Positions 3,001 to 27,900 of a stretch of DNA of 64,000 nucleotides are shown here, piece after piece (within the stretch, counting starts at the first letter, position 1; each line of letters opens with the position of its first letter). Source of the stretch: Ophelia neglecta (lineage: Eukaryota); assembly GCA_965285935.1 (NCBI GenBank), contig OZ260661.1, forward strand, positions 128,774,001 through 128,838,000, in the 5' to 3' direction. Made by a program: the position numbers.

Positions 3001-6000
3001 AAACGTCATTAACTGTGAACGGAAATGAGAAGCAGCCCGAGCAGATAATAAGGACGTCCATGTCCAACTCTGGGTAGCTCATGTCTTTAACCTGGAATGG
3101 AAAGAAAGGCATCCCCCATCCTTTCTAGGCCAGACTCTAGCCTCAGGATGGGCCTCTGGACTGGGCTAGTTAACCCGACTGGGAGTAGTCTGTCCCCATC
3201 CTTTCTAGGCCAGACTCTAGCCTCAGGATGGGCCTCTGGACTGGGCTAGTTAACCCGACTGGGAGTAGTCTGTCCCCATCCTTTCTAGGCCAGACTCTAG
3301 CCTATTCTCTTGTTCTGATGCCCTAGAGATGTCTTGGAATGTCTGAACTTTGTTCACACAAATGCTTTGAAACCAAGAGACCAACTGTGTCTAACTATTG
3401 AGATCTCGACCTGTTTTCTTCTTCATAAATCTTCTCTACCCCCCATACCCCATACCCAGCCTTGCCCCGACCCTCCAATCTGCCTGTAATGCTTCTTAAT
3501 ACTGTACATACATTAAGATGGTCACTTCATTGACAGGAATTTTCCATCACCCTTAGCTTGCAATGAAACACCCTGATGAAAACACCATGATTCCTGAACA
3601 AAATGTACATACACGTATACTACTGTCACTAAGCTGATATTAATAAAAACACAGACTCTAACTTGTAGTTCTTCCCTAGAGACGCATAAGCTCCGACTTA
3701 CCAGTTACAAGGACAACAAGGGCAGGCGGCCCTGCCACAATAGGCTATCACATGTAGTGTGGCCATTTATAGAACAGCACCATTTTTACTGGCAATTTGT
3801 GCAATTGTAATTTTACCCCGTTTTTCCTGAAAAACTGGCACTGTAGTGAGGATCTGTCGGCGTTTCTGGCCTCACTGAAGGTAGGGCCGTTAATGATCGG
3901 CCAACTTTGTCCTGGTATAAATATACCTGTTGTCTGCTGGCTTGTGGTATCAGAGAGCCCGATATGTGGACGTGAACATGTATATGTATGCTAAGGATGA
4001 AAATTGCTAGTTTTGGTAATGGTACCTTTTGATGCAGCTATTAAATCCCCTTAACAAATTGAACCCTGCATTAATTTTACCACATAAAAGTAATCAAGGT
4101 TTAAAGTAGGGTTAATGGCCTAATATACTCCTGCAAAATTTAAAAAATAGCTTAAACCTGATAAATTTCTTCCTGTCAAAATGTCCAAAACACTGCTGGT
4201 GAAAATTTGCTAATCATTGACAGTGGTATATCTTTCTCAGACTTTGACTAAGATAAGGTCACTTCCTGTTTTCTTCTGGTTTAGATAAATGTTTCCACTT
4301 TGTACAATTATGTTGCTGAATAAATCATATCCTGTCGTTTGCTCCGCTCTGCTTCCGGAAATCTGTGTAAAACATGTCTGTGTTTATGTTTTCTCATGTT
4401 CGGTCCCTGAAAAACTAGCTAGTTTTTACAACAAGTTGCCCCGATTTCATTAAAACTCAGTGCAAACTCTCCAGTGTTGACGTAAATAGCTGTTGATCTT
4501 GTTTGGTTGTTGTGGGTGCTGGCCATCGTTTTTAAGCCGCTGGTTTCAAGCTCCAAGACATCACATGTAGTTAAACGATATGGTTAATCAACTGTCAAAG
4601 GCCTTGTAAAAAAACTGCTTGCGGTTAAACGCAAAATTGCCGGTGACTGACACAAAAGAGTGTTTAGGTGTAAAAGTGGCCTTGCGTTTGGCATTGACAG
4701 AACTGTTGTATTGTGTGGCTAATGAGCCGCTCAAGAGTGATTGTAAAAAGTAGCAAGGTTCATTTACAGTTGGCAAAAACAGTGAGGGTTCACGGCTGAG
4801 TGGGTCTGAACCAGATGGTTCTGTCAGGCTGATGCTATGGGAGCACTCCTCAGGTGTCAGTGGGCGGTGTAACAGAAACAGAAGTGCTATCATGGATACT
4901 ACTACGTTAGTGTGCTTCACAAGGATACTACTTCAAGTAGTGTTGTGTTCTAGCTACACATGGTTGTAGACCTGGTTGCCATGTAAACAATGTCTCAATT
5001 AACCCAGATTCTGTTTATTCATCTGACTTTTCTTATTCCCAAGGCAGGTGTCAGTGTTTATTACTAGTTATGATGTCTGTATAAGCTTTTTAACAGGTTT
5101 GTTTCTGAAAGAGGTTGGACATACATCCCCATCAATGATACACTACAGAAACATCTAAGAAGGGGGGGGGGGGGGGTGGGGTTCACTCGTATTTCTGGCT
5201 GGGGTATTAGTGGGACATCCCACTTATTAGTCTCTATATAATTTGAGATGAATCAAATTAGCAGAATTACTATAGATATGAACTATTGGGAGGTTGTGTT
5301 TGTGCCTACACAAATGGTATTGAGTCCAGTGCTGTCTGGATTGGTGTTTCACAATCTAACACTTTCTATTATTCATATTTTTCCTTTCAGACAGAGGTTC
5401 TTTTTAATTGTCCTCAAATATATAATTAAATTATCTTTTTCAGAGCACCAGAACTTTTTTGGGGTTGATGACAGTGTGGGGCCAGTGGCGTTGAGCTTGA
5501 AGAGGGAGAAGGTGGATGAGAGAGAGCGGGAAACTAGTGTGGGGAAGGTGGAGGGAGGCGGGCCATGCTTCATGTACAGGCTCATAGTCAGGACCAGTGA
5601 GGTAAGTCTATACCTGGGTGGGGAGGGGAGGGGAGGGGAGGGGAGGGGAGGGGCTGTGGGGGGGGCTGTGGGGGGAGGGGAGGGGCTGTGGGGGGAGGGA
5701 GAGAAGGGAGGGGCTGGGAGGGGGGGGGGGGGGGGTGGGCCCTGCTTCATGTACAGGCTCATAGTCAGGACCAGTGAGGTAAGTCTATACCTGGGTGGGG
5801 AGGGGAGGGGCTGGAGAAGGGAGGGGCTGGGGGGAGGGGAGAGAAGGGAGGGGCTGGGAGGAGGAGGAGGGGGGGGGTGGGCCCTGCTTCATGTACAGGC
5901 TCATAGTCAGGACCAGTGAGGTAAGTCTATACCTGGGTGGGGAGGGGAGGGGCGGGAGAAGGGAGGGGCTGGGGGGAGGGAGAGAAGGGAGGGGCTGGGG

Positions 6001-24900: not shown

Positions 24901-27900
24901 ACTGTGTAACAATTTGAGTTGTGCCCGTCAAAACTTGGTTTGTCTCTCGGCCATTTTGATAATGTGGATATGTGTTGTCTCCGGCAGAAATCTGATGGGT
25001 GCCTCGGATGAGAATCTCTCCGCCTCCGGACGGCAGCGATTGGCTGCTTCTCATTCTGGGCCGGGTCAGAGGTCAGGGCTGACCAATAAGACGTCCCCAT
25101 CCAGTACCTTCCAGGAGGACTTGATGCGGTTGATTGACCCGGATGTTTCCTTCAGCGAACCACTCAACATATCAGAGGTAAGTTCCAAAACCGGTGTGGT
25201 GGCAAAATTGTCAGCAATAATTGGCAACATAATTTAACTCTCTCTTGTCCCATTACATTATGGTAATACACATAGTTTAAACATATCTACACAGAAATGT
25301 GCAAACAGTGCACTCGCTGTGCTTTTTCTTCAGAATCATCCAGTTTCCCTGATTATTTCTTTAAGATAATATGCCTGAAAAGTCCGTATGTCACCCCTAC
25401 CTGTTAATGATAACTCATTGGAACTTATATCATACAGAAAACCCATTTTGGTTCATAGCTATTATTTCATTAACTGAATGATTAATTAGTCATAGTAATA
25501 ATTTACAGAGAAGTAGAAAAGGTGTCAAGAAACAATCATGATATCATTAGTAATAATGATATCATAAGTACAAGGTTTTCAGTCAGTCCTTAAAGAGCTG
25601 TATTTGTTGCCATGAAAGGCTGAAAGCCGAACCTGGTGACTCAGTCTTGCCTCATTAGATATCTTATTAATATTGAATTTTTGGCTGATAATTAAAATTA
25701 TGGCTCAGTGCAGTAAAGCTGATGGCGTATGTCCACTATTCTAGGATTTGGATTTTTAGGGTTTAGGACACATAAGCACCATGTGGGCTATTTAGTGTCT
25801 TTTAGTAGGGTAAATTTCATGTAAGAATCAGAATTGGGTTTATTTATCTAACGGTGGTCCCTGCAATGTGGGGCCCCTTGGGTGTATGACCATCTGAGAT
25901 GGCAGGACAGTTTTTGAATTCCCATATCCTATCTTTTCCATGTTAAAGTTCTTCCGATGGAGGGCCACTTTTCCTTTGAACTAGGGGTGGCCCTACGTGG
26001 CAGGGACCACTGGAACATTTATTAATGGTATCAGTAGTATGTTATTGAGTTTTATTGTGTAAAAACATTCTATGTGTGTGGATCAGAGGTGTTTGCTCTG
26101 ATTAAAAATAAAAAGCATTATTAAAGGTTTATAAAAAGTTGGTCAATAAATCTGTTTAAATGGATTTTGAAAACCTCAACTTATAAAAACTGTTTCTAGA
26201 ATTGTCATCTACTACATTTTGAAGTAGAGGTCTAGGGCTCTTAAGTACTGAAGAGACCCTTTCAAAGCACTTTTCTAGGAAGTGCCAGCTGCCTCGTACA
26301 TGTGTGTCACTGGGCCGATTAGGTAGTAAAGACGTGCTAACGACTTGCTGTCATTACGGTTATTGTCCTAATTGCTCCAGTTATTCACATGACGCATTTC
26401 ACCACATAGCACTTAGTAAGTCAGCCGGGTGTTACCATCAGTGAATCAGCCGCCACCAGTCAGTCAGTCCTTGCAGAGCTTCATAGCCGTCACAACTCAG
26501 CGCTGTCCACGTATTCAAATCAGTTTGATGAGGTCTGGGGTGCTGCTGCATTTGATGGGATTTTTAAAGTGTATTCAACCCTTGCAGGAGGAGAGTCACC
26601 CCCACCGGAGACGGAAACACACCCGATCCCCCCGTCTGCCGCGCACCACCTCCGAGGAGAGTGTGGCTGCAAAGAAAAATGGAGTCCGGGTGCAGGCCAA
26701 TGGTCCGGTGGAGAGCTATGACAACGGAGATGTGTTCTCAGGAACTCCACCTCAGGGGAAGCCACCGACAGGCGGTACGGGACAAGAGGGACTGGACAGG
26801 GAGCAGAAGTAAGTGGGGACTGGGCAGGGGTGTGTGTGTGGGGAGGGGGGTGGGTGACAAGAGGGACTGGACAGGGAGCAGAAGTAAGTGATGAGTGGGC
26901 AGGGGTGTGTGTGAGGGGGGGGGGGAACCACCGATGGGCGGTACGGGACAAGAGGGACTGGACAGGGAGCAGAAGTAAGTGGGGACTGGGCAGGGGTGTG
27001 TGTGTGTGGGGAGGGGGGTGGGTGACAAGAGGGACTGGACAGGGAGCAGAAGTAAGTGGGGAGTGGGCAGGGGTGTGTGTGTGTGGGGAGGGGGGTGGGT
27101 GGGAGGGGGGTGACAAGAGGGACTGGACAGAGAGCAGAAGTAAGTGGGGAGTGGGAGGGGGTTGGTGAGGGGGGGGGGAGGGGACGGCAAGAGAGCAGAA
27201 GTAAGTGGGGAGTGGGCAGGGGGGTGTGTGTATGTTTGGGGGTGGGGATGACAAGAGGGACTGGACAGGGAGCAGAAGTAAGTGGGGAGTGGGCAGGGGT
27301 GTGGATGTGTGTGTGTGTGTGGGGGGGGGGGGCTATGACTGACTGGGGCAGGGGTGTGGTCTTGGGGGGGGGGAGAGATGGGAGGGTGGGTATATTAGGG
27401 GAGATATTGAGATATGGGGTAAGTCCTGACTAGGGAGGAAATGGCTTAAGGGCTGCACAGAGGGCACAAGTCTCAATGGTTAGGGAGGGGTAGGGGAGGG
27501 GTTGGACATCAGAGAGACCGATAGAAAGCCAGGCAGTAGGGATACTATAGAGAGATGACCAGGCAGTGGGGCCAGACTATAGAAGTTATAGGCAGTAGAG
27601 ACATTGTATTCAGATGACATAGGTAGTAGGGAGGCTGTTGTGAGATGAAGGCAGTGGGGCAAGACTATAGAAGTTATAGGCAGTAGAGATATTGTATTCA
27701 GATGACATAGGCAGGTAGGGAGGCTGCCGTGAGATGACAAGCTAGTAGTGATACTTGTAACAAGTGGGTTTTACTGGTATTGCCAGCCCTCATGTGTATT
27801 TTGTGTCTCAGACACCTTGACTGTCCAGATAAATGCATTCACCAGTTATCCTGCAAGATTTCGACTACCTTATGTGCATTAATTTATCTTCCCACATCTT

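What the first reader, a model, noticed from the sequence alone, without database searches (positions are those of the whole stretch)
5560..27300. Tandem arrays repeatedly seeded on exon ends plus 5' splice sites in one gene
Seen: five independent SIPA1L introns begin with copies of the preceding exon end plus donor (4 donors from 5602, a 24-bp array from 7093, 3 donors from 14319, a second donor at 19685, 7 donors from 26809). In three of them the junction copy is near-identical while the G-rich spacers vary, giving a repeat-spacer look. Inference: a mutational process focused on G-rich donor regions (G-quadruplex or R-loop slippage), and/or decoy donors that tune productive splicing, since most distal donors bring in a stop codon.
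Basis: partly seen in the sequence, partly recalled or inferred. Interest (0 to 1): 0.7.

Follow-up and report, generated by a model that had tools for sequence, protein, structure and literature searches.

The report
Minisatellites that repeat exon ends and donors
Five introns of one invertebrate SIPA1L gene open with short tandem repeats that copy the end of the preceding exon and its splice donor; this kind of repeat is already described ("mirages" in amphioxus, the F7 repeat in humans) and is most likely a tolerated by-product of repeat instability.

Summary
A SIPA1L/SPAR gene (Rap-GAP, PDZ and SPAR_C domains; 23 phase-consistent exons on the + strand, 5444-39767) has tandem arrays straddling 5 of its 22 donors. 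Each array's first unit holds the last 4-66 nt of the exon plus the 5' splice site. That gives 16 strong donors, at 5602/5779/5921/6067, 14319/14527/14646, 19357/19685 and 26809-27278 (seven). A 24-bp array from 7089 has a real first donor and weak GTTAGT copies.

Tandem arrays fill 21% of this gene. Five arrays straddle a donor where about 0.9 are expected by chance (P about 0.002, post hoc). None of the 23 acceptors examined is straddled.

The kind is already in print: "mirage" minisatellites in amphioxus Adh3, troponin C, globin and PGBD5, and human F7, IFI6, CBS, LMNB2, PDGF and ABCA7. In F7 only the most upstream donor is used.

The G-quadruplex idea fits 3 of the 5 arrays. Of 12 strong distal donors, 11 lie behind an in-frame stop, mostly supplied by the donor consensus itself. 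The donor cores vary less among copies than their flanks, but the evidence is weak (P 0.024 on non-repetitive flanks).

Verdict: a new member of a known kind and probably neutral. Decoy function is not excluded. The organism is not identified and is not human.

The parts
5444..5601 (+). Exon E1 of the SIPA1L gene (Rap-GAP dimer region); its last 56-61 nt are copied in array A1
   Evidence: Pfam PF21022; tblastn of Lingula, Owenia and vertebrate SIPA1L ends at 5604-5607; phase-consistent model
5541..6190 (+). Array A1: 4 units of 142-177 nt, each exon end + GAG|GTAAGT/C + G-rich spacer; donors at 5602, 5779, 5921, 6067
   Evidence: family D11
7017..7092 (+). Exon E3 (ends ...EEEMYNN, conserved in homologues)
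7086..7250 (+). Array A2: 24-bp x 6.8; the first unit holds the real donor GTAAGT at 7093, later units hold GTTAGT
   Evidence: family D10
14169..14318 (+). Exon E12 (poorly conserved linker; supported by open frame, splice sites and phase only)
14253..14700 (+). Array A3: 3 units, each 66 nt of exon end + CAG|GTAGGT + G-rich spacer; donors at 14319, 14527, 14646
19215..19356 (+). Exon E17; its end is collinear with Owenia residues 1331-1369 and Lingula residues 1342-1377
19324..19940 (+). Array A4: 43-bp minisatellite whose unit is homologous to the exon end; junction copies with donors at 19357 and 19685; split by a dispersed repeat at 19424-19569
   Evidence: families D13, D17
26588..26808 (+). 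Exon E19 (poorly conserved; supported by open frame, splice sites and phase only)
26755..27330 (+). Array A5: 7 units of about 75-90 nt (also a 166-168-nt super-unit), each 21-54 nt of exon end + GAA|GTAAGT + G/TG-rich spacer
5444..39767 (+). The SIPA1L/SPAR gene as far as it lies in the window: 23 exons and 22 introns; 21 tandem arrays cover 21% of it

Best explanation
These are boundary-spanning minisatellites, the class called 'mirages' in amphioxus and known from human F7, IFI6, CBS, LMNB2, PDGF and ABCA7. In a gene whose introns are unusually rich in minisatellites, a tandem duplication sometimes has its left breakpoint in the last 4-66 nt of an exon and its right breakpoint in the intron. 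The duplicated piece then carries the exon end, the 5' splice site and the start of the intron. Replication slippage or unequal exchange changes the copy number afterwards, and G runs and (TG)n in the spacers slip further.

The arrays are tolerated because the first donor, the one attached to the real exon, is chosen. Later copies stay inside the intron. If a later copy is used, the message almost always runs into a stop codon. In three arrays, purine- or G-rich stretches on both sides of the donor probably favoured the first slippage.

Shown here: the anatomy, the independence of the five arrays, the excess at donors, and the reading-frame consequences. Inferred from other systems: use of the first donor only, neutrality, and the slippage mechanism.
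For: Anatomy: exon-derived copies exist only downstream of 5 of 22 donors. None of the 23 acceptors has one, and none lies elsewhere in the window.

Direction of copying: the ends of E1, E3 and E17 align to distant homologues. There the exon is the source and the intronic copies are derived.

Ordinary minisatellite behaviour: 21 arrays cover 7,284 of 34,324 nt of the gene. The last unit of A1 is the most diverged. A5 has nested unit sizes and three different exon breakpoints, at -54, -28 and -21. A dispersed repeat has inserted into A4.

Slippage substrate: in A1 and A3 the exon stretch at the left end of the unit is G/purine-rich and aligns with the tail of the spacer.

Frame: 11 of 12 strong distal donors lie behind an in-frame stop. 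The six A2 copies have a weakened donor.

Precedent: PMC3087553 (section 16 read) describes mirages spanning exon-intron boundaries with units of 10-160 bp, normal splicing, concerted evolution and diverged edge units. PMC3902484 (one passage read) lists the lancelet Adh, troponin C and PGBD5 cases. PMC1557585 (abstract, Introduction, Discussion read) shows that the F7 pseudo-sites are functional but only the most upstream is used. PMC5954066 (passages read) shows that the ABCA7 repeat includes the exon 18 donor.
Against: Five arrays at donors against about 0.9 expected, and none at acceptors, is more than plain neutral placement predicts. Some bias of mutation or of retention is therefore needed, and none was shown.

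The 18 nt around the donors (-12 to +6) vary less among copies than the flanks: 2 of 72 columns against 42 of 215 (P=0.0002). Against non-repetitive flanks only, it is 2 of 72 against 18 of 148 (P=0.024). That could mean constraint on the copies.

The donor at 5779 would add 177 nt in frame without a stop.

No transcript, population or cross-species data were available. E12 and E19 are exons by open frame, phase and splice sites only.
Confidence: 0.72

Rival explanations
1. The reiterated donors are functional modules kept by selection. They could act as decoy or reserve 5' splice sites, or as U1 binding sites. In that role they would tune productive splicing through stop-containing isoforms, strengthen definition of the upstream exon, or protect the intron from premature cleavage.
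For: All 12 distal copies in A1, A3, A4 and A5 keep a strong donor, scoring 8.3-11.6. The core -12..+6 is less variable than the flanks. In A3, a 51-nt block from -32 to +19 is identical in all three copies, while 9 of the 34 columns just upstream vary. 11 of 12 distal donors would give a stop-containing message. In human IFI6 and CBS the first two pseudo-sites are used, and in ABCA7 one retained unit gives a frameshift (PMC1557585 Introduction; PMC5954066 passages).
Against: The conservation test is post hoc and weak once low-complexity flanks are removed (P=0.024). Short gene-conversion tracts or hypermutable flanks explain it equally well. In A2 all six copies carry a weakened donor. In F7, and as reported for the amphioxus mirages, the copies are silent. 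The stop codons come from the donor consensus itself. There are no expression data.
Confidence: 0.12
2. A donor-focused mutational hotspot. G-rich sense-strand sequence just after the 5' splice site forms G-quadruplexes or R-loops during transcription. Breaks or stalled forks there are repaired with slippage and generate the duplications. This is a cause of the excess at donors, and it is compatible with the arrays being neutral.
For: A1, A3 and A5 begin with 55-68% G and hold 10 of the 17 sense-strand G4 motifs in the window. GC skew is +0.32 and +0.39 in the 2-kb bins that contain A1 and A5. Several different breakpoints in the end of one exon in A5 suggest recurrent events.
Against: A2 and A4 are not G-rich (22% and 25% G). 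The other 17 introns have no G-rich start, so G-richness is not a general property of donors here and may simply have been amplified by the arrays. The largest arrays of the gene (16827-17597, 31687-32408, 35692-36678, 38666-39337) are not G-rich. Structure formation was not tested.
Confidence: 0.3
3. Coincidence or artefact. In a gene that is one-fifth minisatellite, some arrays abut exons by chance. Alternatively, the assembler multiplied the junctions.
For: If arrays may fall anywhere, 4.18 would contain a donor by chance (P=0.40). The window was picked out because of the pattern.
Against: With arrays kept out of exon interiors, the expectation is 0.7-0.9 against 5 observed. The copies differ by substitutions and indels. 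One array carries a later transposon insertion. The arrays are only 165-650 bp long. The same structure has been confirmed by re-sequencing and RT-PCR in other species (PMC3902484 passage; PMC3087553 section 16).
Confidence: 0.07

Closest known systems
Amphioxus 'mirage' minisatellites (Adh3, troponin C, globins BflGb6/BflGb9, PGBD5)
   Same: These are tandem repeats whose units span an exon-intron boundary and so reiterate splice signals. Units are 10-160 bp. Several can occur in one gene region. Units show concerted evolution with diverged edge units. They sit in minisatellite-rich introns (PMC3087553 section 16; PMC3902484 passage). The original Adh3 paper (Canestro et al. 2002, Nucleic Acids Res) I saw only as an entry in a reference list.
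   Different: In amphioxus both 5' and 3' boundaries are duplicated; here only donors are (5 against 0). Three of the five arrays here have G-rich spacers, which the passages I read do not mention. I could not show that the window is from a cephalochordate. Normal splicing and length instability, shown there, are untested here.
Human minisatellites whose first monomer spans an exon-intron boundary (F7 IVS7 37 bp; IFI6/6-16; CBS IVS13; LMNB2; PDGF; ABCA7 intron 18, 25 bp)
   Same: The authentic donor is followed by identical pseudo-donors. F7 copies only the last 4 bp of the exon, much like A2 here. Use of a later unit shifts the frame or brings a stop (PMC1557585; PMC5954066).
   Different: Each human gene has one such array; this gene has five. 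Copy numbers here are low (2-7). Units here copy up to 66 nt of exon. Use of the donors is experimentally known there and unknown here.
Intron gain by tandem duplication across AG|GT (the Rogers model, as cited in PMC3087553; PMC3265369 and PMC4974935 seen in a search listing only)
   Same: A tandem duplication carrying splice signals leaves the message unchanged because the duplicate is spliced out.
   Different: No new intron is created here. The arrays sit at the start of existing introns, and at least three of the exon ends are ancestral.

Membership tests
Boundary-spanning minisatellite ('mirage') | Head-to-tail tandem array lying in an intron | tested here: met
   TRF and repeat families for all five arrays
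Boundary-spanning minisatellite ('mirage') | First unit contains the exon end and the splice site, so both are reiterated in the intron | tested here: met
   Exon portion copied: A1 56-61 nt, A2 4-7 nt, A3 66 nt, A4 33 nt, A5 21-54 nt
Boundary-spanning minisatellite ('mirage') | The copied exon is a genuine coding exon | tested here: inconclusive
   E1, E3 and E17 align to distant SIPA1L proteins. E12 and E19 rest on open frame, splice consensus and phase continuity only.
Boundary-spanning minisatellite ('mirage') | Normal splicing from the authentic site; copies silent or rarely used | not testable with these tools
   No transcript data for this organism
Boundary-spanning minisatellite ('mirage') | Length polymorphism or instability; concerted evolution with diverged edge units | tested here: inconclusive
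   Only one haplotype is available. The last unit of A1 is the most diverged and inner units are nearly identical. One A5 unit is truncated.
Decoy donors / unproductive splicing coupled to nonsense-mediated decay | Distal sites give a premature stop when used | tested here: met
   11 of 12 strong distal donors
Decoy donors / unproductive splicing coupled to nonsense-mediated decay | Distal sites are actually used, and are conserved by selection | tested here: inconclusive
   Use is not testable. Among copies, the core -12..+6 shows 2 of 72 variable columns against 18 of 148 in non-repetitive flanks (P=0.024, post hoc).
G-quadruplex/R-loop-driven repeat instability | G4-forming motifs on the non-template strand at the unstable site | tested here: not met
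   Present in A1, A3 and A5, absent in A2 and A4. The feature is therefore met for 3 of 5 arrays, not for the set.

The most novel reading that the evidence does not exclude
In this lineage the first tens of bases around 5' splice sites are a preferred seeding point for minisatellites, and the reiterated donor cores are kept intact by selection. The arrays would then act as graded, copy-number-variable regulators of SIPA1L splicing (decoys, reserve donors or U1 landing pads) and not as junk. The evidence leaves this open. There is a roughly five-fold excess at donors. There are no arrays at acceptors. All 12 distal donors in four arrays are intact. The cores vary less than the flanks.
Probability: 0.1. 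Interest if true: 0.6.

Novelty: new member of a known kind. Interest (0 to 1): 0.3.

Why it matters
A single gene with five boundary-spanning minisatellites is a compact natural test bed for an old question: how does the spliceosome choose among identical 5' splice sites? It holds 16 strong donors in four different sequence contexts and reading phases.

If the excess at donors and the absence at acceptors hold genome-wide, they would say something about where minisatellites arise or survive. They would also extend 'mirages' beyond the few amphioxus genes where they were described case by case.

As it stands, the finding mainly warns gene predictors and variant callers. Such introns offer many equally good donors, and their copy number is probably polymorphic.

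Tried and rejected
1. Identifying the organism failed.
- A poorly conserved exon found no relatives.
- The PDZ exon found 2,079 SIPA1L relatives, but none above 73% identity.
- By summed tblastn score the gene is nearer to Lingula (1016 bits) and Owenia (962) than to six vertebrates (725-844).
- An exon of the neighbouring uridine phosphorylase gene found only unnamed records at 80-87% identity, with named vertebrates at 60%. I did not trace the unnamed records.
- Searches with 'longer' covered proteins up to 2,000 residues only, so a longer annotated orthologue would have been missed.
- Rfam found nothing in the window.

2. A common mobile element behind the five arrays is rejected. Only two G-rich low-complexity matches of 31 and 36 nt were found.

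3. Mirror-image arrays at acceptors: none was found. Two arrays end 14 and 31 nt before an acceptor but contain no exon sequence.

4. A sense-strand excess of donor-like motifs in all arrays. Motifs number 53 on the + strand against 7 on the - strand across all 19 arrays scored in the window, three of which lie outside the gene. The counts are dominated by the five junction arrays and by one 47-unit array, so per array this is not significant.

5. The free-placement permutation is set aside as a null because it lets arrays swallow whole exons. It also used two exon borders that I later corrected (E15, E18); one search uses the corrected model.

6. The original 'mirage' paper (PMC117041) is not held.

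- orthologous loci in relatives;
- other copies of this genome.
The bacterial/archaeal genome collection was not used, being irrelevant. The supplementary alignments of PMC3087553 could not be seen.

8. I found no genome-wide test of donor-versus-acceptor seeding of minisatellites in the listings. That is not proof that none exists.
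Full report
What the window is. The window has no N and 42% G+C, with CpG at 0.49 of expectation. On the + strand lies a SIPA1L/SPAR-type gene. Single exons match Pfam Rap-GAP_dimer, Rap_GAP, PDZ and SPAR_C, in that order. tblastn with eight named SIPA1L proteins marks collinear exons from 5443 to 39764.

The gene model. Using open frames, splice consensus and reading phase, I built a model of 23 exons whose phases all fit: E1 5444-5601, E2 6402-6590, E3 7017-7092, E4 8777-8869, E5 9211-9314, E6 9482-9639, E7 10346-10452, E8 10746-10978, E9 11276-11421, E10 12105-12219, E11 13009-13262, E12 14169-14318, E13 14968-15257 (or -15125), E14 16461-16516, E15 17612-17819, E16 18256-18495, E17 19215-19356, E18 24988-25177, E19 26588-26808, E20 27991-28133, E21 38009-38243, E22 38408-38480, E23 39624-39767. 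Exons E12-E16, E19 and E21 lie in the poorly conserved middle of the protein and rest on frame, phase and splice sites only. Exons were translated and searched one by one.

The organism. It is not identified. The best identity of the PDZ exon to any of 2,079 relatives is 73%. The gene scores higher against Lingula and Owenia than against vertebrates. An exon of the neighbouring uridine phosphorylase gene finds only unnamed records at 80-87%. I do not take the contig for human.

The observation.
- A1 (5541-6190) has four units, each with 56-61 nt of the end of E1, a GAG|GTAAGT donor (GTAAGC in the last unit) and a G-rich spacer.
- A2 (7086-7250) is a 24-bp array. Its first unit holds the last 4-7 nt of E3 and the real donor. 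Its six later units carry GTTAGT.
- A3 (14253-14700) has three units with 66 nt of E12 and CAG|GTAGGT.
- A4 (19324-19940) is a 43-bp array whose unit is homologous to the end of E17. It has a second full junction copy at 19652-19721 (donor at 19685) and a dispersed repeat inserted between the two copies.
- A5 (26755-27330) has seven units with 21-54 nt of E19 and GAA|GTAAGT.
A blastn of all 23 exons with 40-nt flanks against the window finds exon-derived copies only at these five donors. It finds none at any acceptor. The arrays share no common element.

Is it more than chance? Minisatellites are very dense here: 21 arrays cover 7,284 of 34,324 nt of the gene, while the 40-64 kb part of the window has few. 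If arrays could fall anywhere, 4.18 would contain a donor by chance (P=0.40), but that null lets arrays swallow exons. With arrays kept in introns and allowed to overlap an exon by at most 70 nt, 0.91 of 20 arrays straddle a donor on average, against 5 observed (P=0.0017). With the 14 arrays of at least 100 bp the mean is 0.71 (P=0.0002). The excess is therefore real within this gene. The test is post hoc, the 70-nt margin was chosen after seeing the data, and the gene was flagged for this pattern.

Direction and mechanism. The ends of E1, E3 and E17 align to distant homologues, so the exon is the source and the intronic copies are derived. In A1 and A3 the left edge of the unit inside the exon is a purine- or G-rich stretch that aligns with the tail of the spacer. 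Similar low-complexity sequence on both sides of the donor is a plausible substrate for slippage. A5 shows three different left breakpoints in the exon and a two-level period of about 77 and 168 nt, which suggests repeated events. Spacer differences are mostly length changes in G runs and (TG)n. This accounts for the 'repeat-spacer look' without any function.

G richness. Only the three introns with A1, A3 and A5 start G-rich (55-68% G in the first 100 nt, against 10-25% in the other 19). These three arrays hold 10 of the 17 sense-strand G4 motifs of the window. A2 and A4 are not G-rich, and neither are the largest arrays of the gene. G-quadruplex or R-loop instability may therefore have contributed to three arrays. 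It cannot be the general cause.

Consequences for the message. Of the 12 strong distal donors, 11 are preceded by an in-frame stop. In the three phase-2 exons the stop is the TAG or TAA of the donor consensus itself. The exception is 5779, which would add 177 nt (59 codons) in frame. The A2 copies have a weak donor (score 2.9 against 6.9). The scores come from a weight matrix with frequencies recalled from memory and serve only for ranking.

A hint of constraint. Among the copies, the 18 nt from -12 to +6 around the donor show 2 variable columns of 72. The flanks show 42 of 215 (P=0.0002; the truncated A5 unit at 27201 was left out, so 6 of its 7 copies were used). After removing low-complexity flanks, the comparison is 2 of 72 against 18 of 148 (P=0.024). 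In A3 a block from -32 to +19 is identical in all three copies, while the 34 nt upstream vary at 9 columns. This could reflect selection on the copies, short gene-conversion tracts from the exon copy, or more mutable flanks. The window and the flank limits were set after looking, so I treat it as a lead only.

What is known.
- Tandem repeats spanning exon-intron boundaries were named 'mirages' in amphioxus Adh3. They were later reported in troponin C, globin and PGBD5 genes. Units are 10-160 bp, splicing is normal, there is length instability and concerted evolution, and both 5' and 3' boundaries are affected (PMC3087553, abstract and section 16 read; PMC3902484, one passage read; the Adh3 paper seen only in a reference list).
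- In humans, minisatellites whose first monomer spans the boundary are listed for IFI6, CBS, LMNB2, PDGF and F7. In F7 fifty constructs showed that the pseudo-sites are functional but only the most upstream one is chosen (PMC1557585, abstract, Introduction, Discussion read).
- The ABCA7 intron-18 repeat includes the exon-18 donor, and retention of one unit shifts the frame (PMC5954066, passages read).
The present case has every structural feature of this class. Splicing behaviour and polymorphism could not be tested.

Verdict. The thing is a new member of a known kind: five mirage-type minisatellites in one gene of an unidentified invertebrate. They are most likely tolerated by-products of minisatellite instability (confidence 0.72). 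Two points remain open. One is the excess at donors with none at acceptors. The other is the low variability of the donor cores. Both leave room (about 0.1) for a functional reading. Interest is modest.

Noticed in passing
38143-38201 (inside exon E21, 38009-38243): A perfect 15-bp x 3.9 repeat lies in frame and encodes ARGQE four times. It is an exonic minisatellite in the same gene; each unit holds a weak donor-like GAG|GTCAGG.
   Followed up: partly
35692-36678 (intron 20): A 21-bp x 47 array carries 31 sense-strand donor-like CAG|GTGACT or AAG|GTGACT motifs and none on the other strand. It is not next to any exon of the model.
   Followed up: partly
16827-17597 and 12919-12977: A 32-bp x 24 array ends 14 nt before the acceptor of E15. 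An (ACC)n/9-bp repeat ends 31 nt before the acceptor of E11. Neither contains exon sequence.
   Followed up: yes
14500-14526 and 14619-14645 (copies 2 and 3 of array A3): Each copy has an AG ... GT pair enclosing 27 nt that would stay in frame without a stop and repeat the last nine residues of E12. This is the kind of unit the published mirage model proposes could become a new exon.
   Followed up: no
15126 and 15258 (exon E13): Two good donors lie 132 nt apart in the same phase, so two in-frame forms of E13 are possible.
   Followed up: no
7357-8166 (+), intron 3: An open frame of 269 codons matches RNase H (PF00075) and RVT_3. It is probably a fragment of a retroelement lying in the sense orientation.
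   Followed up: partly
12350-12495 and 19424-19569; 13684-13857, 28170-28343 and 30801-30976; 29467-29544 and 37004-37081: Three families of short dispersed repeats (74-93% identity) lie in the introns. One copy sits inside array A4.
   Followed up: partly
59011-63764 (+): A second gene, a uridine phosphorylase (its relatives carry PF01048). It has two 49%-identical versions of one exon in tandem (59836-60072 and 60684-61133), perhaps mutually exclusive exons. A 21-bp x 15 array lies at 61319-61639.
   Followed up: partly
1258-2496 and 3114-3303: Upstream of the first exon in the window lie a 42-bp x 28 array and a perfect 80-bp x 2.4 repeat. Arrays are dense in 1-40 kb and sparse in 40-64 kb.
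   Followed up: no
23352-23953 (intron 17): A C-rich 20-21-bp array (about 29 units) carries G4 motifs on the antisense strand. This is the opposite strand bias to A1, A3 and A5.
   Followed up: no
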